Assembly (NCBI GenBank): GCA_947085915.1
Contig: CAMTYD010000031.1
Span: 1 to 57,273 of the forward strand
DNA: 57,273 nucleotides
Reading direction: 5' to 3'
DNA from: an uncultured Parcubacteria group bacterium
GTDB taxonomy: Bacteria; Patescibacteriota; Minisyncoccia; Phycocordibacterales; UBA2100
Positions within the stretch are counted from its first letter, which is position 1. Every line of letters begins with the position of its first letter. The position numbers were made by a program, and so were the translations under genes. This document shows positions 9,541 to 43,529 of the stretch, piece after piece. The notes below the pieces were generated by a model. It had not been told where the DNA came from and made no database searches. It worked only from the letters and a program-made list of their open reading frames with translations.

Positions 9541-10011
9541 ATGAAACCGCACGACCAGATACGGAAGACCGCGCTCGCTGTCACCCGATGGATAGGCTCT
9601 CCCGGCTCGGTTGTCGTCCACACGATACTTTTTGCCGGAAGCTTTATTGCAGTTCTCGCGGGATGGATTGGCTTCGATCGCATGCTCTTGGTGCTTACCA
9701 CTATCGTCTCTCTTGAGGCAATCTATCTCTGCATACTTATCCAGATGACCATCAATTACACGACTCAATCCATCGAGGAAGTGAGCGATGACATCGAAGA
9801 AATGCAGGAAGACATCGGCGAGATCGCGGAAGACGTCGATGAACTGCAAGAAGACGTGGAGGAAATCAGCGAGGACGTCGAGGAGCTGAACGAAGAGGAA
9901 GCGACCGACTTGAGCGAAGAGGCAGCGCAAAAGAAAACGCTGGCCGATATTCAGACAGACCTGCGCAAATTGATGTCAGACATCGACCGGCTGAAATCCG
10001 ACCGAACGTAA
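9541..10011 (+). CDS. DUF1003-like membrane protein with an acidic coiled-coil tail
   Basis: Two TM helices followed by a repetitive E/D-rich heptad region (EDIGEIAEDVDELQEDVEEISEDVEEL). Confidence 0.6.
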   Translation: MKPHDQIRKTALAVTRWIGSPGSVVVHTILFAGSFIAVLAGWIGFDRMLLVLTTIVSLEAIYLCILIQMTINYTTQSIEEVSDDIEEMQEDIGEIAEDVDELQEDVEEISEDVEELNEEEATDLSEEAAQKKTLADIQTDLRKLMSDIDRLKSDRT

Positions 10012-10028
10012 CCTCAGACGAGAAGTGC

Positions 10029-27980: not shown

Positions 27981-30788
27981 TTATTCCGATATGGTGACCA
28001 TGCGATCCACACCCACGTTCTTACGCTCCGTAATCTTTCCGGAAGGCCACTCAATCCGGACATCGACGGGAGCTTCGTTTGCCCCGAGACCGAAAAGGAG
28101 CGTTGAACTATTCTGCGAGCGAAAACTTCCTCCCAGAACTAGAAATTTCGTGCGCGTCGTATCTCCGGAAGTGACCGACACTTTTGAGCCAATTCCCGCA
28201 GAGTTGTTCGTGACACCCCTGAGTCTAATCGAAATAAAGTGTGTGTCGACGTGAGGAAGTCTATTTTCCATGAACGAATTTAATTCCGGAGCACCGCCGT
28301 ATACCGGTGCATTTCCTATAAAAACGTCCGGGTCTCCGTCGTTATCAAAGTCGGAAGTTGCCAGCGGAAAACCTGTTGCTGTATCCGAGCACATATCGAT
28401 GCCGGACCGGTCAACAAATGTTCCGTCGCCAAGGTTTCGATACAGACTATCCCTACGCAGGAGTGGACGCTGGAGCTGGGGGTCAGGCTCGAGTGATGAG
28501 CGTATGTTGTCGCCGTTCGCAGCATACACATCCTCAAGACCGTCCAAGTCGTAATCAAGTAACGCGATTCCCCAGCCTACGCCCGTTGCTCCGAGGCGTA
28601 ACTCATCGGTCACAAAAGAGAACGTGCCATTCCCCTTATTGCGGAACACAAAATCGGTAAGAGAATTTGTGACGAAGAGGTCGGCGAAACCATCGCTGTC
28701 GTAATCGCCAATTGCGACTCCCATGCCACTACCGTAGTAGTCCAATCCCGCCTCTTTTGTCGCATCCCTGAATTTCAAACCCCTTTCGTTCTTAAGGAGA
28801 AGATTGGCACCAAAGTCGCTGGTAAGGAAAACGTCGGTACGTCCATCGTTATCGTAATCAAATGAAATCGGCTGAAAAAACGCCCCGGACACTCTCGTAT
28901 ATGGATGAGTGCCTTCTTCTTGCGCATCGCGCGAAGTCGATTCTTCAGCTCGGATGATTCCGGTAACCGTGCTGGCGAAGCCCGTGTCTTCGGTAAATCG
29001 TTGTCCGGTATTTATGAACAACCGCGCCCTACCCGGGATGTGAAGCAGTGCATCGATCACAGGAGCGTTCGACATCCACTCCCCTGTTGTCACATCCGAC
29101 CCCAAATCAATAGCCCTCGTGACGATGAGACACCCCTGCTGGTCGAGAAACAGTTCTGTGCCGATGATATCTTCGACACTCGTACCTAGATCCGGATGAT
29201 GTTGTATCAGCTTACCTGCATCTATGCCGCACACGACGGAGGTAGATTTCTTGATATAAGGATCTGACAAAGTCTTTTTGAGGGCATTGTTTTTTCCTAC
29301 ATACAAATCTCGGCGCAAGCCACTATCGACGATAACGACGTCGAGCGTGCCATTTCCATCATAATCGGCGAAGGATGCTGCTGCAGCTCCAAAAGCTGAT
29401 TCATACGCCGAGAGACCGACATCCTGGGTGACCTCTCTAAAAAGACCGCCAAAATTCTTGTACACCCTCACCTTCCTCTCAAAAGAAAGCGGCTCGGGAT
29501 TCTTACTTGAGAAAGCTGGGCGGGCGTCAAACACAAAAAGGTCTTGCATTCCATCGTTGTCATAATCGGAAAAATACGCAGACGTCGAGTTTTTCTCCGG
29601 TAATCCTACTTGTCTGCTCACATCAGTAAATGTCCCGTCGCCATTGTTTCTATACAATCGACTCGCATCCCAGTACCCCGAGACAAAGATGTCATCGAAC
29701 CCGTCGAGATTGTAGTCTCCCCACGCGGCACCCATCGCAGACGGGCTGTTTTCTAGACCCGACCGTGTGGATGCGCGAAAAAGTGAGTTCCCCTCACAAC
29801 TCATAATGCCGGAACCTTCAACGCCAAAAAGTAAGAAGTCGATAGAAGGTCGAATGAAGGTTGGTCTGACGCTATGCTGGGAGGCCAAGGTAACGTACGC
29901 CGAGACACAAAGTATGAACGCGAGAACTCCCGTCGCGATGTTTGGAAGACGCTCCGTAAGCGAGGCGATACGAGTTGGCATGAGAAAAGGAAGTACAGCG
30001 TTGAAAAAAGCGACTCCGAATGAAGCCACGAAGAGCGCATAGCGCACGCCGGAAGCCTCCAGAGAGAAATAGAGTAATGCAATTGAAATACCATGAACTA
30101 TTCTCGGATAGAAGCCGCCAGGCGACGTTCGCGGGTCAGATATCATGAATGACGCAAACAAAACGAAAGACGGTCCGATGAGCCCATAGTGGTGGAGAGA
30201 GAAAAGACTCGGAGATAACGGAAGCCATATGAGGAGGAGAGCCGTATAGCTCATTACGAACGATAGCGTGGTTACGATTACACCCGCACGGTAGGCAATG
30301 CCGAGCGAAATCGCAAGTACTGCCGCGTACACATAGGGACTATTCCCCCACTGAGTAAATTCAATCGTCGTCGCGAATGGAGCGAGAAATACGAGCGAAA
30401 CTATCGCAATGTTAGAAGGATTAAATATATGTCTGCCTCCTCTTTGTATGACGTACTTAGAGAGAATTGCTATGAGTGCCGCGAGAGCAAAATAGGCAGG
30501 ATGGGATGCCCGAAAAAATATACCGATGCCAAGCGCCGCAGTAAGCGCACTCGACGGGAAAAATGGATGGAATGTTGAACCCGTATAACGTGCTCGAATA
30601 TACGTTGCTAGAAATTCCGTTGTAACGGCGACCCCGACAGCAACTACGACATCAAACCATCCGACGTTGAAGTTGAGGTACGGTATGCCTACTGAGAGGA
30701 AGGTGACTTGCGCAATGACAAGGAGTTGGAGCGGCTCAAGGAACCAGGCAATCCATGACCGTCCGTAAGCATATACCTTCTGCTGCAT
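27981..30788 (-). CDS. Fusion of a polytopic RnfD/NqrB-like membrane domain with FG-GAP/VCBS repeats and an ASPIC/UnbV C-terminal domain (CRTAC1-like)
   Basis: The N-terminal ~300 aa are multi-TM with HIFNPSN and ISDPRTSP motifs. Repeated DYD.DG..D(L/I)FV..... motifs follow. C-terminal segment GIGSKV.V..G....(QNS)...FGLG. Confidence 0.75.
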   Translation of the reverse strand: MQQKVYAYGRSWIAWFLEPLQLLVIAQVTFLSVGIPYLNFNVGWFDVVVAVGVAVTTEFLATYIRARYTGSTFHPFFPSSALTAALGIGIFFRASHPAYFALAALIAILSKYVIQRGGRHIFNPSNIAIVSLVFLAPFATTIEFTQWGNSPYVYAAVLAISLGIAYRAGVIVTTLSFVMSYTALLLIWLPLSPSLFSLHHYGLIGPSFVLFASFMISDPRTSPGGFYPRIVHGISIALLYFSLEASGVRYALFVASFGVAFFNAVLPFLMPTRIASLTERLPNIATGVLAFILCVSAYVTLASQHSVRPTFIRPSIDFLLFGVEGSGIMSCEGNSLFRASTRSGLENSPSAMGAAWGDYNLDGFDDIFVSGYWDASRLYRNNGDGTFTDVSRQVGLPEKNSTSAYFSDYDNDGMQDLFVFDARPAFSSKNPEPLSFERKVRVYKNFGGLFREVTQDVGLSAYESAFGAAAASFADYDGNGTLDVVIVDSGLRRDLYVGKNNALKKTLSDPYIKKSTSVVCGIDAGKLIQHHPDLGTSVEDIIGTELFLDQQGCLIVTRAIDLGSDVTTGEWMSNAPVIDALLHIPGRARLFINTGQRFTEDTGFASTVTGIIRAEESTSRDAQEEGTHPYTRVSGAFFQPISFDYDNDGRTDVFLTSDFGANLLLKNERGLKFRDATKEAGLDYYGSGMGVAIGDYDSDGFADLFVTNSLTDFVFRNKGNGTFSFVTDELRLGATGVGWGIALLDYDLDGLEDVYAANGDNIRSSLEPDPQLQRPLLRRDSLYRNLGDGTFVDRSGIDMCSDTATGFPLATSDFDNDGDPDVFIGNAPVYGGAPELNSFMENRLPHVDTHFISIRLRGVTNNSAGIGSKVSVTSGDTTRTKFLVLGGSFRSQNSSTLLFGLGANEAPVDVRIEWPSGKITERKNVGVDRMVTISE

Positions 30789-32336: not shown

Positions 32337-33608
32337 TTAGTAATGTGCACTTAAGTACGCCCGCGTTATCGCTCCGAAATTTCCGAGAGCGGGGCTCACG
32401 CCGACGCTCGCCTGGAATTCAGCGAGTGCCGCGCGGGTCAAAGTGCCAAAGTATGCGGTCGCTCCAACGTTCGCGAGAGCCTGAGCAGCCAAGCCTTTAT
32501 TTTGCGAGATCAGGAATCGTTGAAGGATCGTTACTTTGCTTCCGCTATTGCCTTTCGTAAGGTTGGCAGAGACCGTTTTGATCTGAACAGACGTAGCTGC
32601 AGAGCTTTGCTGCCCCGTATTCCCCTGGAGCGACTGTAGGGTGCCCATCAATCCGTTGAGCTGAGCCTGCAAAGCAATTTGCGTAGCTGACGGTGCCGGA
32701 GTCTGAGTTTGCGTCGCTTGCCCCGCTGTTCCCGTAGTACTTTGCGAAGATTGGGAGCCTGAAGGAGTTGCGGCTGTTTGAGTTGATGTCTGCGATGTTT
32801 GTGTTGGGGTAGGAGTTGGTGTTGGTGTGACCGTGACAGACGCACCTGCAGACGAAGGAATGGTAACTGCATTTCCATCCAGAGTAACTGCGGTCTGTGC
32901 CAGTGCGCGGCCGTTGAGCGAGGCACCGGTATTCAGCACAATTGCTGTTTGATCCAATATATTTCCATTGAAGACAGCTGTCGTACCGATGGTCGTCTGC
33001 CCTGCGACAACCCAGAAAATATTCTTCGCCTGCGCTCCGCCCGCGAGCACTATCTTCGCTCCGGAACCGACATTGAGACCTTGTGCTATCTGGAAGATCC
33101 AGACGTCGTTCGCGCCGCCTGAGAGCGTGACATCAGTCGGTATTGAGACGCCGGTCCCCCATTTGTAGACGCCGGGGGCGAGTGAGAGCCCGCCAATATT
33201 TCCCGCGCCGAGTTCGGTAACGTCAGCGGCACGCCCCATGGAGTCGGTGTAAGCGGTTTGCATGTCGAGAACCGCCGTAGTCAGATTCGCAGGAGTTGGG
33301 GCAGCATAGTCGGAAGCGTATACTTTTCCGGTTACAAGAGCAGAGGTGGAAAATGCGCCCGCTGCAGGAAGGGTTAATGCAAATCCTGTCATATACGTCG
33401 CGGCTACCGGACTGACCCCAAGATCTCCAACGATAGAGGTGGCTCCCGTAGTGGAGATACCTGTCTTCGTGAGGATAACGAAGTCACCCGCCGCGCCAAG
33501 ATTAACCGCCGCTGGGCTGGCCGCAAATGCGGCAAACGGTGTCATGAGCACCAGCATGGTCGAAGCTGTCAACATTGTTCGTATTGAATGTGTATTGGAA
33601 TTTTTCAT
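32337..33608 (-). CDS. Secreted DUF3494 (ice-binding-like) beta-helix protein with a T/P/Q/S linker and a C-terminal peptidoglycan-binding domain
   Basis: Signal peptide. LGAAGDFVILTKTGISTTG...IVGDLGVSP...APGVYKW is typical of DUF3494. C-terminal PG_binding_1-like KVTILQRFL...YFGTLTRAALAEFQ. Confidence 0.8.
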   Translation of the reverse strand: MKNSNTHSIRTMLTASTMLVLMTPFAAFAASPAAVNLGAAGDFVILTKTGISTTGATSIVGDLGVSPVAATYMTGFALTLPAAGAFSTSALVTGKVYASDYAAPTPANLTTAVLDMQTAYTDSMGRAADVTELGAGNIGGLSLAPGVYKWGTGVSIPTDVTLSGGANDVWIFQIAQGLNVGSGAKIVLAGGAQAKNIFWVVAGQTTIGTTAVFNGNILDQTAIVLNTGASLNGRALAQTAVTLDGNAVTIPSSAGASVTVTPTPTPTPTQTSQTSTQTAATPSGSQSSQSTTGTAGQATQTQTPAPSATQIALQAQLNGLMGTLQSLQGNTGQQSSAATSVQIKTVSANLTKGNSGSKVTILQRFLISQNKGLAAQALANVGATAYFGTLTRAALAEFQASVGVSPALGNFGAITRAYLSAHY

Positions 33609-34122: not shown

Positions 34123-34421
34123 CTCCGCGGGTAGGATTCGAACCTACAACCAACTCCTTACACGTAATCCCCCTATTACTAAGGGCGTGGACTATATCAT
34201 CATCCCAGTCCTTCAACTGTCGGATGCGAGGCGCTTCGTGCCGGCGTTTGCCGGTACTACTCCTTTGCAGGATAGTCTCTACACCTTTCCCGCCTTAGGC
34301 GGGACTTGGCTCGGGATTGCCCCAGTGGGGTTTCCCCGAATTCACCTCGTTTTTCAATCTCGAATTCCTTCGAGAAGCTGCCTTTTGACAGGGAGCTGCG
34401 CTACCGTTGCGCCACCGCGGA
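34123..34421 (-). tRNA. tRNA-Asn(GUU) interrupted by a group I intron in the anticodon loop
   Basis: 5' exon 34421-34388: TCCGCGG TG GCGC AACGGTA GCGC A GCTCC CTGT. 3' exon 34160-34123: TAA GGAGT TGGTT GTAGG TTCGAAT CCTAC CCGCGGA G. The spliced product folds into a cloverleaf with loop CUGUUAA. U1-A72 plus G73 resemble E. coli tRNA-Asn. Confidence 0.85.
34161..34387 (-). ncRNA. Group I intron (IC3-like, 227 nt, no ORF)
   Basis: The 5' splice site follows a U that can form U.G with GCAG of the intron (P1). The intron ends in G. The core segments CCGAGCCAAG and AAGGTGTAGAGACTA match what I remember of pre-tRNA group I introns such as the Azoarcus tRNA-Ile intron. Confidence 0.8.
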
Positions 34422-34657
34422 ATATTTTGACCGTTGATTTTTAACAACGGCTGCGACTTAGTATAGCCGATGTTGGGGTAAGGTAAAAGACTTTCATAGT
34501 TCATGACAAAACATTCATGACGGCCTTCACGAATCCTTCAGATTGGCCATTTTTCGTGTTTCCTCCCCAATTGTCCATATACCTAAGCGCGGAATGCGGA
34601 TTGTCATACAGCTTCTCATACTTTTCTCAAAAAGAGGTCGCGTATGATACGAGCTCT

Positions 34658-36000: not shown

Positions 36001-36546
36001 TTACGCCAGCAGTTCCTTGAGACGCTTGTTACCTGAAAGGATTCGAGCTTCTTCTTCGCACCATTCTGAAAAGGCATTTCTCTCTGCATTAACTTCTTCT
36101 AGAAAAACACCCCACGCTACCCAACGTACCGCTTCAACCTCTTCAAGGTTCGGCTTTGGCTCTTCTTCTGTCATGCCGACGAGAATCGGACAAATCTCAT
36201 TCTCCATCACCCCAGTGCGCACGAAGGTATATCGATAGGGTGCGACCTCTTCGATAGTAATCGCTTCCATGCGGAGCTCATGAGAAAGCCGGCGCTTCGC
36301 CGCATCAACATTCGACTCATGTAAGCCCGGGTGACCGCAGACGCTATTGGACCAAGCAAGCGGCCACGTCTTTTTGGTATGACTCCTTTGCTGAAGCAAC
36401 AGCTCTCCTTTTCTATTGAAAAGAAACAGAGAGAATCCCCGGTGGAGTGGCGTCGAGGCACCATGCACCAAAGCTTTGGGCATGGTGCCGAGGATGTTGT
36501 TCTCTTCGTCTACCAGAACGACTTCCTCTATCGATTGATGGTTCAT
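36001..36546 (-). CDS. idi: Isopentenyl-diphosphate delta-isomerase, type 1 (Nudix)
   Basis: HRGFSLFLFN..GELLLQQRS..K..WPLAWSNSVCGHP and E..ICPI motifs. ATGA overlap with the upstream gene. Confidence 0.85.
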   Translation of the reverse strand: MNHQSIEEVVLVDEENNILGTMPKALVHGASTPLHRGFSLFLFNRKGELLLQQRSHTKKTWPLAWSNSVCGHPGLHESNVDAAKRRLSHELRMEAITIEEVAPYRYTFVRTGVMENEICPILVGMTEEEPKPNLEEVEAVRWVAWGVFLEEVNAERNAFSEWCEEEARILSGNKRLKELLA

Positions 36547-37460
36547 ACCGAGGCGCCTGAAAGTCCGGGTACTTTCTTTTTCAAAGAAACAACGAGAGAA
36601 GACGCGTCTTCATTCACCACTATGTGGTCAAAAAGATCTTTCCGTTCTCCAAAGAATGCGAGATCCCGTTCCGCGTTCTTGAGACGGTCGTGAATATTGT
36701 CTTCTGTCTCACGTCCGCGCGCGCGAAGCCGGTGAAGAAGTTGACTCAGTCGTGCCCGCTTGCTCCGTCCTGGCGGAAGAAGTCCGAAGGAAAGAACCGA
36801 GCGACGGCCATAGTGACGCGCAAGACCCTGGAGAAGCCCCATCTCTGTGACGACAAGCGGGATTTTCCCTTTGTTCCAGATTGCCTCGATATCCGTACTC
36901 CGGTATCCATACTGACGATTCTCGGTAGAAGACGGTATCCGCGTCACGGCGACGATAGACCCCGCCTTTTGCATGCGTTCAAATTCGGTCTCGGTTGTAT
37001 ACAGGTATTCTCCATCGTCACCGGGTTTTGGAGCGCGCGTAGTCAGGATTGGCACTTTAGCAGCATAGTCGGAACACGCATGCGCAAGCATGGTCGTTAT
37101 TGTCGACTTGCCCACGCCGGAGGGTCCGGTGAACGCGAGGATGTACCGGGAGAACTTCTGTGGAATCTCCACAGTGACCGTCGCTTCATACGCGACTTCG
37201 TATACACGGAGACCCTCTTCCGTCACGTGGGAGAGGCGCATGCGCGGGCGTACCTGTTGTCCGATGAAGGGTTCGTCAGAGATGAGCGACCCGAGAACCC
37301 GGCGACCATTCTGTAATTCAATAAGACCGATCTGTCTCGGCCGCCTGCCGAAGCGCGCAGGCGGGTGTGCGAGTGTCGTGAATGACATAACGATTCCGGG
37401 GAGCTGTTTTTCTTGTTCGCGCTTCTGCGCGCGGTGGACGATAGGTGCGGAGTAGCTCAT
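36543..37460 (-). CDS. Fusion: DUF35-type OB-fold domain (N-terminal, no zinc ribbon) plus guanylate-kinase-like P-loop kinase (C-terminal)
   Basis: The N-terminal ~100 aa show a DUF35 OB-fold-like pattern (GIVMSFTTLAHPPARFG...IGLIELQNGRRVLG...IGQQVRPRM). The C-terminus has GPSGVGKST, LTTRAPKPGDDGEYLY, YGY and a GK-like lid. ATGA start/stop overlaps with thiolase and idi. Confidence 0.7.
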   Translation of the reverse strand: MSYSAPIVHRAQKREQEKQLPGIVMSFTTLAHPPARFGRRPRQIGLIELQNGRRVLGSLISDEPFIGQQVRPRMRLSHVTEEGLRVYEVAYEATVTVEIPQKFSRYILAFTGPSGVGKSTITTMLAHACSDYAAKVPILTTRAPKPGDDGEYLYTTETEFERMQKAGSIVAVTRIPSSTENRQYGYRSTDIEAIWNKGKIPLVVTEMGLLQGLARHYGRRSVLSFGLLPPGRSKRARLSQLLHRLRARGRETEDNIHDRLKNAERDLAFFGERKDLFDHIVVNEDASSLVVSLKKKVPGLSGASV

Positions 37461-38581
37461 ACGTTTGTATTTTCTAGAATATGGATACCACAAGTCGCGC
37501 CCGCACCGCCGAAATTGTGGGCAAGACCATATCGCGCCGATGTACGCTTGAGACTCTTGCCGATATCGATGAGTTGCTTAATGCCGGTGGCCGCAACGGG
37601 ATGACCGCAGGCCTTCAGTCCCCCGCCCATGTTTACAAAAAGCGGTGTGCGACCCGCAAAGAGGTCTTCATAAATCGTAATCCCCTCTCCTTTTTTTGCA
37701 AATCCCAAATCCTCCATGTTGATAACAGCGGCGATGGAGAAGCAGTCATGCGTTTCGAGCACGCGTATATCTTTTCGTTCGATGTCCGCTTCTCGCAGAG
37801 CCTGACTCATCGCCATGCGCGTCGCGGGGAAACTCACAATAGTCGGCCTCTCAGTGATACTGAGGGTATCACTTGCAATCTGGCTTGCGGCGAGGCGCAT
37901 ACCGCTCGTATGCGTAGTTGAAAGGATACAGGCAGCAGCTCCGTCGCTAATCGGTGAACAGTCGAGGAGGCGGAGCGGGTCGGATACGAACGGACTCGCG
38001 GTTACCGCTTCCGGAGAAAGCTCATGCCGGAACTGCGCAAAAGCATTCTCCGTCGCGTTCTTGTGGTGCACCGAGCTCACGATACTCAGCTGTTCGCGTG
38101 TGAGACCGAATTCGTACATATACCGCTTAGCGATGAGGCCAAAAATCCCGGGAAACGTGAGTCCGGATGGAGCGTCGAGCTCACTATCAGCCGCCCCCAT
38201 CAAGGCCTCTGAAATAGCATCACTCGAGGCATCGGTCATCTTTTCTACACCGAGCACGAGGACGGTTTTTGCCCGGCCGCTTTCGAGAAATGCACAGGCT
38301 GTATGAATCGCGAGCGCGCCCGAACCACAGGCTGCCTCAACCCGCAGTGCAGGCGGATGATGAGGCAAAAGCGACGAAGCGAGTGCCGCAATGTGCGCCT
38401 GATTATTCGTGGCTTCAGAGAGCATATTTGCAACAACGACGAGGTCGATATCACGTGCATTCAGCTTGGATGAGGCGAGCGCCGCTTCGATGGCTTCACT
38501 CATCAAATCGCGCAGACTTTTATCCCACCACTCGCCAAAACGCGTAAGTCCGGAACCAGCAAGAAAAATGTCTTTTTGCAT
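37457..38581 (-). CDS. Thiolase (archaeal-type acetyl-CoA acetyltransferase)
   Basis: Active-site Cys context (VEAACGSGALA) and a C-terminal H..G.GG.CG pattern. Start set to ATG 38581, just after the hmgS stop. Confidence 0.85.
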   Translation of the reverse strand: MQKDIFLAGSGLTRFGEWWDKSLRDLMSEAIEAALASSKLNARDIDLVVVANMLSEATNNQAHIAALASSLLPHHPPALRVEAACGSGALAIHTACAFLESGRAKTVLVLGVEKMTDASSDAISEALMGAADSELDAPSGLTFPGIFGLIAKRYMYEFGLTREQLSIVSSVHHKNATENAFAQFRHELSPEAVTASPFVSDPLRLLDCSPISDGAAACILSTTHTSGMRLAASQIASDTLSITERPTIVSFPATRMAMSQALREADIERKDIRVLETHDCFSIAAVINMEDLGFAKKGEGITIYEDLFAGRTPLFVNMGGGLKACGHPVAATGIKQLIDIGKSLKRTSARYGLAHNFGGAGATCGIHILENTNV

Positions 38582-38585
38582 ACGA

Positions 38586-39617
38586 TTATACGGAAAGTGC
38601 TCCGGAGTGTTGTAAGTACTGACTGTAATCCAAGTATGCGTGCTCACGGCTGTCTACGGGGAGAGACTTTCCGGTCTTCAATGCGGTCATGAGGACGGCA
38701 TCGCATCCCGAACCTGATCCGTAAGAAACGAGGAGAATTCGTTGTCCTTTTTTTATCTTCTCGAGCACTGAGACGAGTCCGATGAGCGAACATGCGCTAT
38801 AGGTGTTACCGATGGTAGGGACAACAAAGCCGGCACTCATTTGCTCCTTCGTGATGCCGAATTCCTTGGCGATGCGCATCGGAAATTTTGCATTGGGCAT
38901 GTGGAAGACGACGTGATCAATTCCCGGCAATTTCACCTTCCATGCCGTGAGAGCTGCTTTGATTGTCTCGCGAACGTGTTGGAAATAGCCGGGCTCTCCG
39001 GTAAATCGGCCCGCGTGACGCGGATAGGATTCTCCTTCCGCCCGCCAAAAGTCCGGAGTGTCTGTTGTATATGAAAGTGTCTTTTCTATGCGGCAGAGAG
39101 CGTTTTTGTGTGTCGCCGACCCCAAGAGAAATGCCGCGGCACCAGCCGCCGCTGTATATTCGAGCGCATCACCCGGTTGACCCTGGGCAGTGTCCGTCCC
39201 AACCGCCAGACCAAAACGAACTTGTCCGCTTCGGACAAAGCTGTCGATAATCTGAAGACTCGCTGTCCCCGCTTTACAAGCGAACTCTAAATCTGCTGCA
39301 TGCGAAAAAGGATTCAACTTCAGTGCCGATACAAGCATGCCGCTCGTCGGCTTTACTGCATAGGGATGAGACTCCGACCCGACGAATATCGCGGAGACTC
39401 GAGACGGCGGGACGCGTGACACCTCGAGAGCGGTCCGCGCCGCTTCAAACGCCATGGTGAAACTATCTTCTCCCACTCCCGCGACCGATTTCTCCTCCAC
39501 ACCAAGACCTGCCAGAAGCGCCTGCGCATCCTGCTGCCAATGACGTGCGATGTCGGATGTACGAATACGATATTTTGGCAGGTACACGCCGAAGCCGAGA
39601 ATTGCTGAGTGGCCCAT
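38586..39617 (-). CDS. Hydroxymethylglutaryl-CoA synthase (archaeal/short type)
   Basis: ILGFGVYLPKYRI..., Cys context ACKAGT, ~343 aa. Adjacent to the thiolase as in archaeal loci. Confidence 0.85.
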   Translation of the reverse strand: MGHSAILGFGVYLPKYRIRTSDIARHWQQDAQALLAGLGVEEKSVAGVGEDSFTMAFEAARTALEVSRVPPSRVSAIFVGSESHPYAVKPTSGMLVSALKLNPFSHAADLEFACKAGTASLQIIDSFVRSGQVRFGLAVGTDTAQGQPGDALEYTAAAGAAAFLLGSATHKNALCRIEKTLSYTTDTPDFWRAEGESYPRHAGRFTGEPGYFQHVRETIKAALTAWKVKLPGIDHVVFHMPNAKFPMRIAKEFGITKEQMSAGFVVPTIGNTYSACSLIGLVSVLEKIKKGQRILLVSYGSGSGCDAVLMTALKTGKSLPVDSREHAYLDYSQYLQHSGALSV

Positions 39618-39732: not shown

Positions 39733-40887
39733 TCAACGCGCGAGCCTCGTATGCGCGCGCGCGAGCGTGTTCGTAGATTGAGCAGCGAGAAGGGATATCT
39801 CCCCCGCTAGGATTGCTCCCGCGATAGTCTCCGCGAGTTGCGCGGAGGGCTTCAGGTGTGTTTTCGCCCGCAGAACTACATCCAAACACTGTTTTTGAGC
39901 AGGAAGATTTGTTCCGCCTCCTCTTACGCCTACGAGTAAGGCGGGAATCTCCACCTTGATTCGAATACCGCCCTCGTCTTTACTGAGTATCGTATCTGCG
40001 AGCGAGCCCTCCACCACATGCGCCGCGTCTTGCCCCGTCGCGAGGTACAGTGCGGAGACGATGTTTGCGACATGCAGATTTTTTCCCAAAGCGCCCGAGA
40101 TTTCCGACCCGACCTCCAATTTTGCATGAGCCGTCTTGAGGAGTGCCTCCGGATTCGATTTCAAGACATCGCGAAGAATCTCTTCGGGAAGAACGGCTTC
40201 TGCGCTTACGCGGTATCCCCGGCCGTGCGTTTTCGTCCGCACACTCGGCTTCTTGTCACTATCCACATTGCCCGCCACCGTGAGCATGGTGATATGCAAT
40301 TCGCCGGAAAGAAATTCTCCAATTGCCTGAGCAGCTATCGTGACCATATTCATGCCCATCGCCTCATCAGTATCTGCCGCAATAGTGAGGAAGAGGACGT
40401 CGTCTTTTGTATCAATTTCATAGGAAAGTATCTTGAGGTGCTCGCTCGTCGCCTCTCCAACCTTTCTCCATTCAGATTCGAGTCTGCGAATGCCCGCGGA
40501 ACTCACCTCCGCATCGTTCGTCTCGAACGCAATCGAGCGGGTTATACCGATGTACTCGGACGAAATACGCACACCGCCTGCCGCTGTTAGCGCTTTACAG
40601 CCGCGATTAACGCTTGCGACAAGTGCGGCTTCGGTCGTGGCAACAGGTAGATAGACAGCATGTGCCTCTCCCGAACTGAACATTATCTGAAGCGGACCCG
40701 CGAGACCCACGGGTATCGGAACCGCCCCGAACATCTGCTCGCAGTTTCTTTCGTCCGCCGAGCCAAGTTGCGCAGGTACCAACGCGAGCGCCGATAGCTC
40801 TACGCCCAGCTCCTGCTCAATCATCGCGCGTCGTTTGGCCACCCGATCATCTCCACCTTGCTCTGCGCTAAAGTTGCGTAAATCCAT
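39733..40887 (-). CDS. HMG-CoA reductase (class I-like catalytic domain, no membrane anchor)
   Basis: CEQMFGAVPIPVGLAGPL and DAMGMNMV motifs. Confidence 0.85.
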   Translation of the reverse strand: MDLRNFSAEQGGDDRVAKRRAMIEQELGVELSALALVPAQLGSADERNCEQMFGAVPIPVGLAGPLQIMFSSGEAHAVYLPVATTEAALVASVNRGCKALTAAGGVRISSEYIGITRSIAFETNDAEVSSAGIRRLESEWRKVGEATSEHLKILSYEIDTKDDVLFLTIAADTDEAMGMNMVTIAAQAIGEFLSGELHITMLTVAGNVDSDKKPSVRTKTHGRGYRVSAEAVLPEEILRDVLKSNPEALLKTAHAKLEVGSEISGALGKNLHVANIVSALYLATGQDAAHVVEGSLADTILSKDEGGIRIKVEIPALLVGVRGGGTNLPAQKQCLDVVLRAKTHLKPSAQLAETIAGAILAGEISLLAAQSTNTLARAHTRLAR

Positions 40888-40909: not shown

Positions 40910-41929
40910 TTACGCTATCCGTGACCCTGCCCCAATCTTGGCTTCAAAGATGATGCAACCCTCCTGCGCATGCGCAAAAGTGCGTACGGATGGCAGCGCA
41001 CTTTCTTCGCACACGAGGTGCACGGTGGGACCGGCATCCATCGTGTACAAAACAGCCAAATCTTCACGGGTTCGGAGTGCTTCTATGTCGCGAATGATGC
41101 GATGTGTCTCTCCACTCAGATAATCGAGCGAGGGACTGCTCGAGCGCATCACCGCATGCATATCCAGGCAATCTTCTTCAGACACTTGCTGTAGTTTTTG
41201 AAAATCCTTTGCTCGAATCGCTTCGATACACATTTTTTGCCGTCGGGGAATGTCACGCAGCCGCGCCTCGAAAAGCGGGCTCGTATGCGCGAGCGCATGA
41301 CCCTCAGTCGAGCCTACCGACTTCTCTTTCTTGGTCGGCACGACGATGACATCGTGCAGTACCCAGTGATTCTGCGGAGCTACCTCCTCGGCGTATGACG
41401 AATCAATCTCCTCGCCTGCCCCCGCTACCATCGCGACAAATCCGCCAAAGACGCTGCGGCTGGCAGAGCCGGACCCGAGACGGGCGAGAATACTCACATC
41501 GCGGCGCGATATACCTTTGACAAACCCTCCTGCGGTGAGCTTGTCGAATCCGGCGTACGCTTCCGCCAGCGCACTAAAGACCGCCGAAGACGATGCCAGC
41601 CCGATACCCGGAGGGATTTTTGAGCGAATCTCGAGAGAAACAGATGCGGGAAGTGCCTGAGTCGCACCAATCGTATTCAAATATTCTTTTGCGGCAACGA
41701 AATGTTTTTTCAGTCGTGCCGTCTCCCGCTCGCTAAGCATTCGTGCAGCACCGTCCGGTTCAAAACTTCGAGCAGAAAACTCATCTGCGTGCTCGACCAT
41801 CACTTCGACTACGGGTTGGTCGAGCGTCATTGAGAGCGAATCTGCGGCCGGCAAACGGAGCATTTCATTGCGGTTGCCCCAGTACTTGATAAGGGCGATG
41901 TTTGGTGCGGACGTAGCGCGAATAGACAT
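40910..41929 (-). CDS. Mevalonate (di)phosphate decarboxylase, GHMP family
   Basis: APNIALIKYWGNR N-terminus and GLASSS motif. Substrate (diphospho- or phosphomevalonate) cannot be told from sequence by eye. Confidence 0.8.
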   Translation of the reverse strand: MSIRATSAPNIALIKYWGNRNEMLRLPAADSLSMTLDQPVVEVMVEHADEFSARSFEPDGAARMLSERETARLKKHFVAAKEYLNTIGATQALPASVSLEIRSKIPPGIGLASSSAVFSALAEAYAGFDKLTAGGFVKGISRRDVSILARLGSGSASRSVFGGFVAMVAGAGEEIDSSYAEEVAPQNHWVLHDVIVVPTKKEKSVGSTEGHALAHTSPLFEARLRDIPRRQKMCIEAIRAKDFQKLQQVSEEDCLDMHAVMRSSSPSLDYLSGETHRIIRDIEALRTREDLAVLYTMDAGPTVHLVCEESALPSVRTFAHAQEGCIIFEAKIGAGSRIA

Positions 41930-41931
41930 AA

Positions 41932-42783
41932 TCAGAGTGAGATTGTAGGCATATTTCTCCGGTACGCAATTTTCAGAATCTCTTCCGGGTTACCGAGTGC
42001 AAGCACCATACCCGCGCCGCCCGTGCGACTCCCCGCACCAATAACCTTGGCCGCGCCATCAATCTGCTCAATAGCGGCAATCAGTTCCCGGATGTCCGGT
42101 GGTACAACTCCGAGTGCTATTTGAGCCTTGTTGTGCTCACGCATCACGAGAGGCAATGATTCGCCTTCGATAAGCCGATGAGTGCACCTATCAATTGCTT
42201 CCAAAGAGTCTTGAACTTCCTTCTCCCGACCTCGCATCCATGCGACAAGCTCTGTCGTAGACTCTCCCGGAAATCCTGTATCGATGAGGATTGCCTGATG
42301 TAACAACCCTGAGGATATGTCGATGCGTTTTGGGCCAATACTTTTAGCGAACACGACGGGCGTATTCTCCCAAATGACGGCGAAGTCGAAGCCGCTGTGT
42401 CCGGGATTCAAGACATCCTCAATCTCCAGAGCTGCGACGCGGGAGTCTTCTCCCAGGAGTGCACGGGTTACGGCGATAATAAGTGCAGTTGAGGAACCCA
42501 TCCCCTTTCCCAGAGGAACATCTGCGTGAATGCTCAGCTTGCCGGATAATTCCGGATTCTTCCTTTGGCACAATCCCACAATCTTTTCCAAGTACGGTTG
42601 CCACATCTCCCCTCCCCTCCAATCTATGTCGATTCTTTTAGAGGCGGCATCTTCCTCACATACCGCTTGTACCCCCAAAGAAGAAGGTAGGGCGAGCCCT
42701 TGGTACCCGAAGAGCACCGCGTACTCACCGGACAGAATAATTTTGCCTGGCGCGAAGGAGGTGCGATTCATACTCAGTTTCAT
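41932..42783 (-). CDS. Mevalonate kinase (short GHMP kinase)
   Basis: APGKIILSGEYAVLFG and PLGKGMGSSTA motifs. Confidence 0.8.
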   Translation of the reverse strand: MKLSMNRTSFAPGKIILSGEYAVLFGYQGLALPSSLGVQAVCEEDAASKRIDIDWRGGEMWQPYLEKIVGLCQRKNPELSGKLSIHADVPLGKGMGSSTALIIAVTRALLGEDSRVAALEIEDVLNPGHSGFDFAVIWENTPVVFAKSIGPKRIDISSGLLHQAILIDTGFPGESTTELVAWMRGREKEVQDSLEAIDRCTHRLIEGESLPLVMREHNKAQIALGVVPPDIRELIAAIEQIDGAAKVIGAGSRTGGAGMVLALGNPEEILKIAYRRNMPTISL

Positions 42784-42842
42784 TTACTTTACAGGAATCT
42801 TTGGCTCAAGGATATGTTCTTTGCTATCATTCGAAGCATCCT

Positions 42843-43529
42843 ATGAGCGAAACTCCCCACATTCCCGCCTGCATTGGGATTATTCTCGACGGTAATCGCA
42901 GATGGGCGAAAGAGAACGGACTCGCTTCCTTCGAGGGTCACCGCCGGGGAATGGAAAATATTGAGCCAATTGCTCTTGCGGCACGCGACATGGGAATACA
43001 GCACATGGTCGTGTATGCCTTTTCCACGGAGAATTGGAATCGCGCCAAAGAAGAGGTTTCGTATCTTATGGAAATCTTTGAGTCGATGGCACGGGAAGGT
43101 CTGGCGAAATACAGAGATGAGGGTATCGCCGTCCGTTTCGTGGGTCAAAGAGACCGCTTCTCTCCAAATCTCCAAGCTGCGATGCGGGATGTCGAAGCTA
43201 AAAATCCCCAGAATCCCAAGCTGACCTTGTGGATGTGTATGTCATACGGCGGCAGAGCGGAAATCGCACAAGCGGCGCAAGCCGCGTCACAATCAGGTGA
43301 TGCAATGAGTGAAGAGTCTCTCGCGAAGCACCTGTGGACGGCTGGGATGCCCGACCCCGACCTCATCATCAGGACGGGCGGAGAAAAGCGCATCTCCAAC
43401 TTCCTCTTGTGGCAAGGTGCATACAGCGAATTATTCTTCGTCGAACCATACTGGCCTGCTTTTACAAAAACAGATTTAGAAGGCGTTCTCAAAGAATACG
43501 CTCAGCGCGAGCGTCGGATGGGTAAATAA
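42843..43529 (+). CDS. uppS: Undecaprenyl-diphosphate synthase (cis-prenyltransferase)
   Basis: IGIILDGNRRWAKENG, FSTENWNR and RTGGEKRISNFLLWQ motifs. Divergent from the mvk operon. Confidence 0.9.
   Translation: MSETPHIPACIGIILDGNRRWAKENGLASFEGHRRGMENIEPIALAARDMGIQHMVVYAFSTENWNRAKEEVSYLMEIFESMAREGLAKYRDEGIAVRFVGQRDRFSPNLQAAMRDVEAKNPQNPKLTLWMCMSYGGRAEIAQAAQAASQSGDAMSEESLAKHLWTAGMPDPDLIIRTGGEKRISNFLLWQGAYSELFFVEPYWPAFTKTDLEGVLKEYAQRERRMGK

What the first reader, a model, noticed from the sequence alone, without database searches (positions are those of the whole stretch)
36543..37460. DUF35 OB-fold fused to a guanylate-kinase-like P-loop kinase inside the mevalonate operon: candidate for the missing pathway kinase
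Seen in sequence: one continuous ORF is translationally coupled by ATGA overlaps to the thiolase gene upstream and idi downstream. It joins an N-terminal DUF35-type OB fold to a C-terminal NMP-kinase domain (GPSGVGKST, LTTRAPKPGDDGEYLY, YGY). The OB fold has no Cys-rich zinc ribbon. Established knowledge: in archaea, DUF35 proteins scaffold the thiolase/HMG-CoA synthase complex. Animal phosphomevalonate kinase is a P-loop NMP-kinase-fold enzyme, not a GHMP kinase. Inference: this locus has MVK and an MVD-like decarboxylase but no GHMP phosphomevalonate kinase and no amino-acid-kinase-type isopentenyl phosphate kinase. The fused kinase could therefore supply the second phosphorylation, of either phosphomevalonate or isopentenyl phosphate, tethered to the thiolase/HMGS complex. 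Caveat: the domain looks close to a true guanylate kinase, though positions that are Arg and Glu in canonical GMK appear to be Lys and Asp here. It may simply be gmk captured by fusion. An in-frame GTG before EIPQKF could also allow separate translation of the kinase part.
Basis: partly seen in the sequence, partly recalled or inferred. Interest (0 to 1): 0.82.

Follow-up and report, generated by a model that had tools for sequence, protein, structure and literature searches.

The report
Guanylate-kinase-like candidate isopentenyl phosphate kinase
A conserved gene in ultra-small (CPR) bacteria joins the scaffold protein of the first mevalonate-pathway enzymes to a rebuilt guanylate-kinase domain, which is probably the pathway's missing last kinase; this is predicted from sequence, not yet tested in the lab.

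Summary
Window 36543-37460 (minus strand) encodes a 305-aa protein: a DUF35-type OB fold without a zinc ribbon, joined to a guanylate-kinase (GK) fold. ATGA overlaps couple it to the thiolase gene upstream and idi downstream. The fusion is not an artefact: more than 500 homologues exist, all in the operon IDI-UPPS-MVK-decarboxylase-HMGR-HMGS-thiolase-fusion.

The GK domain is a diverged paralogue, not gmk. The P-loop, the LID arginines and the phosphate-binding Arg/Tyr residues are kept. The guanine contacts are replaced in 59-60 of 60 family members (Ser to Ile, Glu to Ala/Ser/Thr, Thr to Tyr). A complete Peribacter genome has a separate 200-aa gmk and no PMK or IPK orthologue.

The operon's decarboxylase is of the phosphomevalonate-decarboxylase type. 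Its best PDB hit is Anaerolinea PMD, and it carries the Asn and His that distinguish that enzyme from its engineered variant and from three diphosphomevalonate decarboxylases. Stand-alone orthologues of the kinase sit beside IDI and/or UPPS with no mevalonate genes on the contig stretch seen.

Most likely reading (about 0.5): a non-homologous isopentenyl phosphate kinase completing a Chloroflexi/haloarchaea-type pathway. Phosphomevalonate kinase, another prenyl-phosphate kinase and true GMP kinase remain possible. No description was found in the literature searched.

The parts
36543..37460 (-). Fusion gene (305 aa): DUF35 OB fold plus a guanylate-kinase-like P-loop kinase
   Evidence: ORF and ATGA overlaps. 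Pfam PF01796 and PF00625. 548 homologues. AF2 model with pLDDT 88.
37176..37460 (-). N-terminal DUF35-type OB domain (aa 1-95): helix 6-17 plus a five-stranded barrel, no Cys and no zinc ribbon
   Evidence: PF01796. AF2 model with pLDDT 90. The best Foldseek hits are DUF35 chains of the M. thermolithotrophicus thiolase/HMGS complex 6esq (TMq 0.68, rmsd 1.7 A), followed by other DUF35 proteins.
37146..37175 (-). Inter-domain linker (aa 96-105), containing the in-frame GTG (V97)
   Evidence: pLDDT below 50 at aa 98-101. The linker is variable in length and sequence in the family. The GTG was read from the sequence.
36543..37145 (-). Guanylate-kinase-fold kinase domain (aa 106-305) with an intact P-loop and LID but a remodelled acceptor pocket
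   Evidence: PF00625. TIGR03263 scores 77 against a cut-off of 160. The Foldseek top 50 are all GMKs, TMt up to 0.85. Residue table.
37101..37127 (-). P-loop GPSGVGKST (aa 112-120)
   Evidence: Invariant in 103 homologues.
36001..36546 (-). Type 1 isopentenyl-diphosphate isomerase, start overlapping the fusion's stop (ATGA)
   Evidence: NF002995 scores 193.7 bits against a cut-off of 127.
37457..38581 (-). Archaeal-type acetoacetyl-CoA thiolase. The likely start is M23 at 38581; the mechanical ORF runs to 38647.
   Evidence: NF004720 scores 383 bits, aligned from aa 25. Pfam thiolase domains.
38586..39617 (-). Archaeal-type HMG-CoA synthase
   Evidence: NF003274 scores 425.7 bits against a cut-off of 244.
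39733..40887 (-). Class I HMG-CoA reductase
   Evidence: PF00368 scores 300 bits.
40910..41929 (-). MVD-family decarboxylase with a phosphomevalonate-decarboxylase-type signature (YWGN... TEGH)
   Evidence: The best PDB hit is 6n0x, Anaerolinea thermophila PMD, at 180 bits against 134 for the best DPMD. The Asn/His pair matches wild-type PMD, not the engineered N-to-K, H-to-M variant 6n0z.
41932..42783 (-). Short, divergent GHMP kinase, presumably mevalonate kinase
   Evidence: TIGR00549 scores 74 bits against a cut-off of 163. All PDB hits are mevalonate kinases.
42801..43529 (+). Undecaprenyl-diphosphate synthase (cis-prenyltransferase), divergent from the operon
   Evidence: PF01255 scores 256 bits.

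Best explanation
The gene encodes a two-domain protein.

The N-terminal OB domain is the DUF35 subunit that holds the archaeal-type thiolase and HMG-CoA synthase together. This is inferred from homology and gene order.

The C-terminal domain is a catalytically competent P-loop kinase derived from guanylate kinase. It still transfers the gamma-phosphate of ATP onto a phosphate monoester, but it no longer recognises guanine.

Its most likely substrate is isopentenyl phosphate (IP). The proposed pathway is: MVK makes mevalonate-5-phosphate; the PMD-type decarboxylase makes IP; this kinase makes IPP; and the translationally coupled IDI and the adjacent UPPS use the IPP. On this reading the kinase replaces, without homology, the amino-acid-kinase-family IPK in a Chloroflexi/haloarchaea-type mevalonate pathway.

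What is shown: domain architecture, conservation, gene order, active-site substitutions, absence of PMK and IPK orthologues in a complete relative genome, and the PMD-type residues.

What is inferred: the substrate identity and the physical tethering to the thiolase/HMGS complex.
For: 1. The kinase machinery is intact. The P-loop is invariant, and the LID arginines, R38, Y50 and Y78 (yeast numbering) are kept in at least 59 of 60 fused and 6 of 6 stand-alone members. The fold is GK, TMt 0.85.

2. The guanine contacts are gone. S34 is Ile in 59 of 60 members, E69 is Ala/Ser/Thr in 60 of 60, T80 is Tyr in 60 of 60, and G103 is Leu. In human GMPK these positions (S37, E72, T83, D103) hydrogen-bond guanine, and the E72A mutant has no detectable activity (PMC12297293). 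The gmk equivalog HMM scores 77 bits against a cut-off of 160.

3. The complete Peribacter genome table lists the fusion (gene 643) and also a separate 200-aa gmk (gene 213). It has no K00938, K13273 or K06981. Its authors call the pathway 'near-complete' (PMC4736985).

4. About 12 distinct operons carry two GHMP-fold proteins (MVK and decarboxylase) and the fusion, with no third GHMP kinase and no AAK kinase. L019 is the one exception.

5. The decarboxylase is closest to Anaerolinea PMD 6n0x (180 vs 134 bits). It carries YWGN and (S/T)EGH, like wild-type PMD. The engineered 6n0z variant has K and M at these positions, as do three DPMDs. The pattern holds in 13 of 13 window-type decarboxylase sequences.

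6. Stand-alone orthologues (43-72% identical, same signature) sit beside IDI and/or UPPS without mevalonate genes in view. L013 has UPPS / kinase-IDI, L007 has IDI-UPPS-kinase, and L006, L008 and L012 have UPPS nearby.

7. The kinase gene overlaps idi by 4 bp in the window and in L013.

8. There is a precedent. PhnN, a GK-family enzyme, also converts a non-nucleotide phosphate monoester to a diphosphate (established knowledge; weak TIGR02322 hit).
Against: - There are no biochemical data.
- The PMD/DPMD discriminator (Asn/His vs Lys/Met) is inferred from the sequence difference between 6n0x and 6n0z plus three DPMD sequences. The primary paper could not be read.
- The window decarboxylase passes the TIGR01240 'diphosphomevalonate decarboxylase' cut-off (187 vs 171 bits).
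- L019 combines the fusion with an extra canonical MVK and a decarboxylase carrying R/Q at the two positions, which fits less neatly.
- Whether the genomes with stand-alone kinases truly lack mevalonate genes could not be checked; only 2 to 21 kb around each gene was seen.
- Several stand-alone copies lie in a cell-envelope gene cluster (His_Phos_1, WecG, WecB, Wzy) and 3-5 kb from GMP synthase. One lies next to a ribosomal-protein operon (L020).
- The Peribacter genome has an orphan 265-aa proB-like amino-acid-kinase gene scoring below its KO threshold. It could conceivably be an IPK.
- A subfamily-specific Glu/Arg pair (E180, R182), in an insertion next to the conserved YGY acceptor-site motif, could equally suit a carboxylate-bearing substrate.
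Confidence: 0.5

Rival explanations
1. The kinase domain is a phosphomevalonate kinase (mevalonate-5-P to mevalonate-5-PP), and the decarboxylase is a classical diphosphomevalonate decarboxylase. This would give a eukaryote-type pathway with a third, independent origin of PMK.
For: - No GHMP PMK is present in the operons or in the complete Peribacter genome.
- The decarboxylase passes the TIGR01240 cut-off, and KEGG calls the Peribacter enzyme K01597.
- L019 pairs the fusion with a decarboxylase that has Arg at the Lys position.
- Conserved E180/R182 in a subfamily-specific insertion could bind a carboxylate.
- Animal PMK shows that a P-loop fold can perform this reaction (established knowledge).
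Against: - The PMD-type Asn/His pair is present in every window-type decarboxylase, and the closest solved structure is a PMD.
- Stand-alone orthologues sit with IDI/UPPS with no MVK or decarboxylase in the stretch seen, where a PMK would have no substrate.
- The guanine pocket is replaced by apolar or aromatic residues (Ile, Ala, Tyr, Leu), which suits an isopentenyl tail better than a hydroxy-acid (inference).
- There is no PF04275 hit.
Confidence: 0.13
2. The kinase acts on another phosphate monoester of isoprenoid or cell-envelope metabolism tied to UPPS. Candidates are dimethylallyl, geranyl or farnesyl phosphate salvage to supply the UPPS primer, or a polyprenyl-phosphate-linked intermediate.
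For: - UPPS is the most constant neighbour of the subfamily, in both fused and stand-alone forms.
- Stand-alone copies are embedded in clusters of His_Phos_1, UPPS, WecB, WecG and Wzy genes.
- The acceptor pocket is hydrophobic.
- Canonical IPKs are known to accept longer prenyl phosphates (abstract of PMC8500459).
Against: - This reading does not explain the fusion to the thiolase/HMGS scaffold.
- It does not explain the exact gap (IP to IPP) left in an otherwise complete operon.
- It does not explain the direct coupling to idi.
- The fold is a soluble GK fold with no membrane segment.
Confidence: 0.15
3. The domain is simply a guanylate (or other nucleoside monophosphate) kinase captured by gene fusion, with no role in the pathway.
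For: - The Pfam guanylate kinase model hits above its cut-off, and KEGG and JGI annotate the proteins as gmk.
- All top structural matches are GMKs.
- GMP synthase lies 3-5 kb from two stand-alone copies.
Against: - The guanine-binding Ser, Glu and Thr are replaced throughout the family, and the equivalent E72A mutation abolishes activity in human GMPK.
- The score is below the gmk equivalog cut-off.
- A complete relative genome has a separate canonical gmk.
- The domain stays linked to IDI, UPPS and mevalonate genes across sequences only 40-50% identical.
Confidence: 0.07
4. The GK-like domain is mainly a non-catalytic, nucleotide-sensing or structural module that regulates or stabilises the thiolase/HMGS complex.
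For: Three 50%-identity clusters of the fusion (P0126, P0127, P0130) have lost some or all of the P-loop Lys, R38, Y50, Y78 and LID arginines. They nevertheless remain fused and remain downstream of HMGS and thiolase.
Against: - In the window protein and at least 59 of 60 sampled fused members, every catalytic residue is conserved.
- Stand-alone orthologues exist without any OB domain.
Confidence: 0.05

Closest known systems
Guanylate kinase (Gmk, EC 2.7.4.8; PF00625 / TIGR03263)
   Same: Same fold (TMt 0.85 to the closed, GMP-bound human and yeast enzymes). Same P-loop, LID arginines, and acceptor-phosphate ligands (Arg38, Tyr50, Tyr78). Same chemistry: ATP plus R-O-PO3 gives R-O-P2O6.
   Different: - The guanine-recognition residues are replaced (Ser to Ile, Glu to Ala, Thr to Tyr, Gly103 to Leu).
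- There is a 2-aa deletion at Glu44.
- There is a 4-aa insertion carrying invariant Glu/Arg before the YGY motif, and a 6-aa insertion after LLPPG.
- The score is below the equivalog cut-off.
- It coexists with a canonical gmk in a complete relative genome.
- It is fused to DUF35 and embedded in isoprenoid operons.
Isopentenyl phosphate kinase (IPK, amino-acid-kinase family; NF040647 / K06981)
   Same: It is proposed to catalyse the same reaction, in the same pathway position: after PMD and before IDI. The synteny with IDI mirrors the IPK-IDI synteny reported for CPR bacteria by Hoshino and Gaucher (PMC6107057).
   Different: The fold is unrelated (P-loop NMP-kinase versus amino-acid kinase). 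This would be analogy, not homology. The activity is untested.
[quoted passage not shown] 2018)
   Same: The OB fold is the best structural match (TMq 0.68, rmsd 1.7 A). The gene sits directly after archaeal-type HMGS and thiolase.
   Different: It lacks the N-terminal rubredoxin-like zinc ribbon, which is replaced by a single helix with no Cys. It carries a C-terminal kinase domain.
Animal-type phosphomevalonate kinase (PF04275) and PhnN ribose-1,5-bisphosphokinase (TIGR02322)
   Same: Both are P-loop NMP-kinase-like enzymes that phosphorylate a non-nucleotide phosphate monoester to a diphosphate. PhnN is itself a member of the GK family.
   Different: There is no PF04275 hit. PhnN scores only 28 bits against a cut-off of 156. 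Neither is fused to DUF35 or found in such operons.
Chloroflexi/haloarchaea-type mevalonate pathway (MVK, PMD, IPK; Dellas et al. 2013, PMC3857490)
   Same: The operon contains MVK plus a decarboxylase closest to Anaerolinea PMD, with the PMD-type Asn/His pair.
   Different: The canonical IPK is absent and a GK-fold kinase stands in its place. The published view is that CPR bacteria have the eukaryote-type pathway (PMC6107057, PMC11052028).

Membership tests
Guanylate kinase (true Gmk) | GK fold with P-loop and LID arginines | tested here: met
   The Foldseek top 50 are all GMKs. The P-loop, R131, R135 and R146 are conserved.
Guanylate kinase (true Gmk) | Guanine-binding residues Ser34, Glu69, Ser/Thr80 and Asp100 (human S37, E72, T83, D103) | tested here: not met
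   These positions are Ile, Ala (Ala/Ser/Thr across the family), Tyr and Glu in 58-60 of 60 fused and 6 of 6 stand-alone members (Asp in 2 stand-alone copies at the last position), against Ser/Thr, Glu, Thr/Ser and Asp/Glu in 32-34 of 36 canonical GMKs. Residue roles are from PMC12297293.
Guanylate kinase (true Gmk) | Scores above the NCBIfam equivalog cut-off (TIGR03263) | tested here: not met
   77.4 bits against a cut-off of 160.45.
Guanylate kinase (true Gmk) | Is the genome's housekeeping gmk | tested here: not met
   The complete Peribacter genome has a separate 200-aa gmk (gene 213) in addition to the fusion (gene 643). This was tested in a relative, not in the window's own genome.
Guanylate kinase (true Gmk) | GMP kinase activity | not testable with these tools
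   An enzyme assay is needed.
DUF35 (thiolase/HMGS scaffold) | C-terminal OB fold (PF01796) | tested here: met
   31.4 bits against a cut-off of 27.1. The best structural hit is 6esq DUF35.
DUF35 (thiolase/HMGS scaffold) | N-terminal rubredoxin-like zinc ribbon (PF12172) | tested here: not met
   There is no Pfam hit and no Cys in aa 1-128. The model shows a helix at aa 6-17 instead.
DUF35 (thiolase/HMGS scaffold) | Encoded next to archaeal-type thiolase and HMGS | tested here: met
   This holds in the window and in every fused locus examined.
DUF35 (thiolase/HMGS scaffold) | Forms a complex with thiolase and HMGS | not testable with these tools
   Co-purification or multimer modelling is needed.
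Isopentenyl phosphate kinase (AAK family) | Amino-acid-kinase fold (PF00696 / NF040647) | tested here: not met
   No such hit was found; the fold is GK. The claim here is 'works like', not 'is a member of'.
Isopentenyl phosphate kinase (AAK family) | Phosphorylates isopentenyl phosphate | not testable with these tools
   An enzyme assay is needed.
Animal-type phosphomevalonate kinase (PF04275) | Profile match | tested here: not met
   No hit at E <= 0.01. No PMK appears among the top 50 structural matches.
GHMP phosphomevalonate kinase | GHMP fold | tested here: not met
   The protein has no GHMP domain.
PhnN ribose-1,5-bisphosphokinase | Equivalog HMM TIGR02322 | tested here: not met
   28.1 bits against a cut-off of 156.
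Phosphomevalonate decarboxylase (for the neighbouring gene 40910-41929) | Asn (YWGN) and His (xxGH) where DPMDs have Lys and Met | tested here: met
   The window has YWGN and TEGH. 6n0x (PMD) has N/H, engineered 6n0z has K/M, and DPMDs 6xr5, 5v2l and 2hk2 have K/M. Treating these two positions as the specificity determinants is my inference.

The most novel reading that the evidence does not exclude
A guanylate-kinase-derived P-loop enzyme family is a previously unrecognised isopentenyl phosphate kinase of CPR/Patescibacteria.

In Peregrinibacteria it is fused to the DUF35 scaffold. [quoted passage not shown]

In CPR lineages where no mevalonate genes are in view, the stand-alone form sits with IDI and UPPS. 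There it would salvage host-derived isopentenyl or prenyl phosphates to build the cell-wall lipid carrier.
Probability: 0.4. Interest if true: 0.8.

Novelty: new variant of a known kind. Interest (0 to 1): 0.72.

Why it matters
If the prediction is right, four things follow.

1. It closes the gap that made the Peregrinibacteria mevalonate pathway 'near-complete' (PMC4736985).
2. It adds a second, non-homologous solution for the IP-to-IPP step. This would be a case of non-orthologous gene displacement and of a nucleotide kinase re-tooled for a lipid precursor.
3. It revises the published view that CPR bacteria carry the eukaryote-type pathway (PMC6107057). They would instead share the PMD route with Chloroflexota, their proposed sister group (PMC11052028). 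This bears on arguments about the antiquity of the pathway.
4. The stand-alone form beside IDI and UPPS suggests how symbionts that may lack a de novo route could still make undecaprenyl phosphate.

There are practical consequences too. Current pipelines annotate these proteins as 'guanylate kinase' or 'OB-fold protein', so pathway reconstructions miss the step. A small soluble IP kinase could also be useful in engineered isoprenol pathways.

Tried and rejected
- **Assembly or frameshift artefact.** Rejected: there are 548 homologues and the reading frame is continuous in every locus.
- **Longer TTG start at 37493.** Rejected on the basis of the homologues' N-termini.
- **Relationship to animal PMK.** No PF04275 hit and no structural hit.
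- **A gmk, PMK or IPK hidden elsewhere in the window.** Pfam scans of the 50 largest ORFs found none.
- **Literature searches for a prior description.** I searched the combinations 'phosphomevalonate kinase / guanylate kinase / DUF35', 'isopentenyl phosphate / guanylate kinase', and CPR with PMK. Nothing relevant was found.
- **Do degenerate fusions co-occur with a replacement kinase?** The contigs were too short to tell.
- **Genome and metagenome scans with the stand-alone alignment.** The search pattern ([LF][TY]GPSGVGK) mostly retrieved cyanobacterial GMKs. Only 9 and 8 loci respectively belonged to the subfamily.
- **Reading Thomas et al. 2019, the PMD specificity paper.** The paper is not held. 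The determinants were therefore inferred from the PDB sequences.
- **3D inspection of the acceptor pocket.** Model coordinates are not exposed, so pocket geometry rests on sequence alignment to GMKs of known structure.
- **The His_Phos_1 genes next to stand-alone kinases.** I considered them as a functional partner. In Peribacter, however, a His_Phos_1/gpmA gene also sits next to WecB without the kinase, so this may be inherited gene order.
Full report
**1. Observation**

The ORF lies on the minus strand from the ATG at 37460 to the stop ending at 36543 (305 aa). The DNA shows TCAT (ATGA on the coding strand) at 37457-37460 and at 36543-36546. The gene's start therefore overlaps the thiolase stop, and its stop overlaps the idi start.

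Pfam finds PF01796 (DUF35 OB fold, aa 22-74) and PF00625 (guanylate kinase, aa 110-295), both above their gathering scores. There is no cysteine before residue 129, so the zinc ribbon typical of DUF35 proteins is absent. Val97 is an in-frame GTG in the linker.

The surrounding minus-strand operon, in order, is:
- a short GHMP kinase (MVK-like);
- an MVD-family decarboxylase;
- class I HMGR;
- archaeal-type HMGS;
- archaeal-type thiolase;
- the fusion;
- type 1 IDI.

A cis-prenyltransferase (UPPS) is transcribed divergently. I scanned the window's 50 largest ORFs and found no other guanylate kinase, GHMP kinase or amino-acid-kinase-family gene. The window also carries purE, purM, purC and purB, so the organism makes purines and must have a real gmk somewhere.

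**2. The fusion is real and conserved**

A search of 5.8 billion proteins returned 548 homologues. The best 120 are 56-100% identical, about 300 aa long, and almost all carry both Pfam domains. Where sources name them, they come from Peregrinibacteria, Peribacteraceae, Kaiserbacteria or 'Patescibacteria'.

About a dozen distinct loci, fetched from ENA, Logan, GTDB genomes and JGI metagenomes, show the same operon: IDI-UPPS-MVK-decarboxylase-HMGR-HMGS-thiolase-fusion. With one exception (L019), these operons contain exactly two GHMP-fold proteins and no other kinase.

**3. Fold and domain identity**

An AlphaFold2 model built on 103 homologues is confident (pLDDT 88). It shows two domains joined by a low-confidence linker at aa 98-101.

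The whole model's top 50 PDB matches are all guanylate kinases. The best are the closed, GMP-bound forms (TM-score 0.85 normalised to the target).

The N-terminal 100 residues, modelled alone (pLDDT 90), match best the DUF35 chains of the Methanothermococcus thermolithotrophicus thiolase/HMG-CoA synthase complex (6esq; TMq 0.68, rmsd 1.7 A). Other thiolase-associated DUF35 proteins follow: MucC, ChsH2, PhlB and the DUF35-type chain of benzoylsuccinyl-CoA thiolase. In that complex DUF35 sits with HMGS and the thiolase, whose interface forms a fused CoA-binding site (PMC12960953, citing Vogeli et al. 2018).

**4. The kinase half is not gmk**

The NCBIfam gmk equivalog scores 77 bits against a cut-off of 160. 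I aligned yeast GK, 36 canonical GMKs, 60 fused members and 6 stand-alone relatives. The results, in yeast numbering, are:

| Position | Role | Canonical GMKs | Subfamily |
|---|---|---|---|
| P-loop Lys, Arg38, Tyr50, Tyr78 | ATP and acceptor-phosphate binding | conserved | conserved |
| Arg131, Arg135, Arg146 | LID | conserved | conserved |
| Arg41 | acceptor phosphate | Arg | Lys |
| Ser34 | guanine contact | Ser/Thr | Ile in 59/60 |
| Glu69 | guanine contact | Glu | Ala/Ser/Thr in 60/60 |
| Ser/Thr80 | guanine contact | Thr/Ser | Tyr in 60/60 |
| Asp100 | guanine contact | Asp | Glu |
| Gly103 | near the guanine pocket | Gly | Leu |

There is also a 2-residue deletion at Glu44. A 4-residue insertion before the YGY motif carries an invariant Glu and Arg.

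In human GMPK the equivalent S37, E72, T83 and D103 hydrogen-bond the guanine. R41, R44, R148, Y53 and Y81 hold the phosphate. The E72A mutant has no detectable activity (PMC12297293).

The domain therefore keeps everything needed to move a phosphate from ATP onto a phosphate monoester. It has swapped a polar guanine pocket for an apolar one.

**5. Genome-level test in a relative**

The paper on five complete Peribacteria genomes calls the mevalonate pathway 'near-complete'. It lists only the steps to mevalonate-5-P and from mevalonate-5-PP onward (PMC4736985).

Its uncut gene table for one complete genome shows gene 643 (312 aa) directly after the thiolase, called K00942 gmk at 103.7 bits. 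A separate 200-aa gmk (gene 213) scores 157.7 bits. There are no entries for K00938 (PMK), K13273 (animal PMK) or K06981 (IPK).

One caveat applies. The genome also has an orphan 265-aa proB-like gene scoring below its KO threshold, with no proA or proC.

**6. Which step is missing?**

The window's decarboxylase passes the DPMD equivalog model (187 vs 171 bits). Its best solved relative, however, is 6n0x (180 bits, against 134 for the best true DPMD). PMC9254496 identifies 6n0x as Anaerolinea thermophila phosphomevalonate decarboxylase.

That paper also states that Thomas et al. converted PMD specificity into DPMD specificity by mutagenesis. The deposited variant 6n0z differs from 6n0x in the aligned region at two positions: YWGN to YWGK, and TQGH to TQGM.

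Three DPMDs (6xr5, 5v2l, 2hk2) have Lys and Met at these positions. The window enzyme has YWGN and TEGH. So do all 13 window-type decarboxylase sequences in fusion-bearing loci.

I infer that the enzyme decarboxylates mevalonate-5-phosphate to isopentenyl phosphate. The missing enzyme would then be an IP kinase rather than a PMK. This fits the recent placement of CPR as sister to Chloroflexota (PMC11052028), a phylum that uses the PMD/IPK route (PMC3857490).

**7. Stand-alone orthologues**

An exhaustive HMMER scan of 1.84 billion representatives shows a small family. About ten full-length 50%-identity clusters carry the fusion. A set of roughly 200-aa stand-alone kinases is 43-52% identical to the kinase half (144-216 bits). 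Canonical GMKs follow after a clear gap, at 65 bits or less.

The stand-alone proteins keep the subfamily signature. Their contexts are:
- **L007:** IDI-UPPS-kinase, with overlapping genes.
- **L013:** a Paceibacterota MAG whose kinase is 72% identical to the window's. It has divergent UPPS, then kinase-IDI with a 4-bp overlap. None of MVK, decarboxylase, HMGR, HMGS or thiolase appears in 16 kb. It looks like the window's operon with the mevalonate genes and the OB domain removed.
- **L006, L008, L012:** UPPS next to or near the kinase, within a cell-envelope gene cluster.
- **L020:** beside a ribosomal-protein operon, with no isoprenoid genes nearby.

A kinase kept with IDI and UPPS where no MVK or decarboxylase is in view makes sense for IP-to-IPP, and not for phosphomevalonate. 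It parallels the IPK-IDI synteny that Hoshino and Gaucher reported for CPR lacking other mevalonate genes (PMC6107057).

A more distant relative (37% identical) in a non-CPR contig lies about 8 kb from an MVD-family gene that also lacks the Lys and has the His. That contig also carries an FMN_dh-family gene, the Pfam family to which, from my own knowledge, type 2 IDI belongs.

**8. Complications**

- **L019** (a Kaiserbacteria MAG) has the fusion plus the window-type short GHMP kinase. It also has an extra canonical MVK (TIGR00549 at 197 bits) and a different decarboxylase. That decarboxylase is very close to Anaerolinea PMD (303 bits) but has Arg and Gln at the two diagnostic positions. Its pathway logic is unclear.
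- **Three fusion clusters** (P0126, P0127, P0130) have variously lost the P-loop Lys, Arg38, Tyr50, Tyr78 and LID arginines, yet remain fused downstream of HMGS and thiolase. The domain may therefore also have a structural role, and another enzyme may do the chemistry there.
- **Whole-genome absence** of mevalonate genes could not be verified for the stand-alone cases.

**9. Conclusion**

My best-supported mechanism is as follows. The DUF35 half anchors the protein to the thiolase/HMGS complex. The GK-derived half is the pathway's missing second kinase. Its substrate is most probably isopentenyl phosphate (about 0.5), less probably phosphomevalonate (about 0.13) or another prenyl phosphate (about 0.15). 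True GMP kinase (about 0.07) and a purely structural role (about 0.05) are unlikely.

I found no description of this family or of this reading in the searched literature. Databases label these proteins 'guanylate kinase', 'OB-fold domain-containing protein' or 'hypothetical'.

It is a new variant of a known kind: a known alternative mevalonate pathway with an analogous kinase of a different fold, in an unprecedented fusion.

Noticed in passing
window 34125-34422 (minus strand): A tRNA gene appears to be split by a group I intron. Rfam RF00028 scores 79 bits at 34169-34401. The flanks read as tRNA halves (5' TCCGCGGTGGCGCAACGGTAGCGCAGCTCC..., 3' ...GGTTCGAATCCTACCCGCGGAGCC). ARAGORN reported no tRNA in the window.
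   Followed up: partly
L019:3352-6127 (Kaiserbacteria MAG JACRFK010000003): A variant operon. It has the fusion and the window-type short GHMP kinase. It also has an extra canonical mevalonate kinase (331 aa, TIGR00549 at 197 bits) and a different decarboxylase, which scores 303 bits to Anaerolinea PMD but has YWGRKD / SEGQ at the diagnostic positions.
   Followed up: partly
P0126, P0127, P0130 (loci L093-L096): These are degenerate fusions. The GK-like half has variously lost the P-loop Lys (to Arg in two of the three), Arg38, Tyr50, Tyr78 and LID arginines. The protein is still fused to the OB domain and still follows HMGS and thiolase. They look like pseudokinase derivatives.
   Followed up: partly
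L008:7953-11958, L009:1844-5492, L010:719-1953, L006:4193-6978: Stand-alone kinases are consistently preceded by a His_Phos_1 (phosphoglycerate-mutase-family) gene, overlapping it or within about 20 nt of its stop. They lie in clusters containing WecG, UPPS, WecB and a Wzy-like gene. GMP synthase lies 3-5 kb downstream in two of them.
   Followed up: partly
window 41932-42783 (minus strand): The operon's 'mevalonate kinase' is unusually short (283 aa) and far below the equivalog cut-off (74 vs 163 bits). Its assignment as MVK rests on weak similarity and on pathway logic.
   Followed up: partly
L016:2951-6082 (Peribacteraceae MAG JAQVVD010000007): A proline-biosynthesis block is inserted between the decarboxylase and HMGR genes of the mevalonate operon. 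The first gene is proB (TIGR01027); the other two look like proC and proA by eye and were not scanned.
   Followed up: partly
Peribacter genome table, gene RIFOXYC2_FULL_PER-ii_58_32_735 (PMC4736985, supplementary file 2): An orphan 265-aa proB-like amino-acid-kinase gene scores below its KO threshold, and the genome has no proA or proC. This is a possible cryptic IPK-like enzyme and a caveat to the 'no IPK' claim.
   Followed up: partly
L162:1-2001 and 10001-10648: In a non-CPR contig (it encodes a protein with a Por_Secre_tail domain), a distant member of the kinase subfamily (37% identical) lies about 8 kb from an MVD-family gene with YWGC / RDGH. At the locus edge there is an FMN_dh-family gene, the Pfam family to which type 2 IDI belongs (own knowledge).
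   Followed up: partly
P0128 cluster: One stand-alone kinase cluster is deposited as 'guanylate kinase [Candidatus Kentron sp.]', a gammaproteobacterial ciliate symbiont. This may be a binning contaminant from a CPR bacterium.
   Followed up: no
window 32337-33608 (minus strand): A secreted ice-binding-like protein (PF11999, 257 bits), by eye with a Thr/Pro/Gln-rich linker and a C-terminal segment resembling a peptidoglycan-binding domain. Nearby lies a 935-aa FG-GAP/ASPIC protein with what reads as a hydrophobic, probably multi-pass, N-terminus (27981-30788).
   Followed up: no
window 3989-5068 and 10029-11045 (minus strand): Two full-length MreB paralogues (each 432 bits to PF06723) lie within 7 kb of each other.
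   Followed up: no
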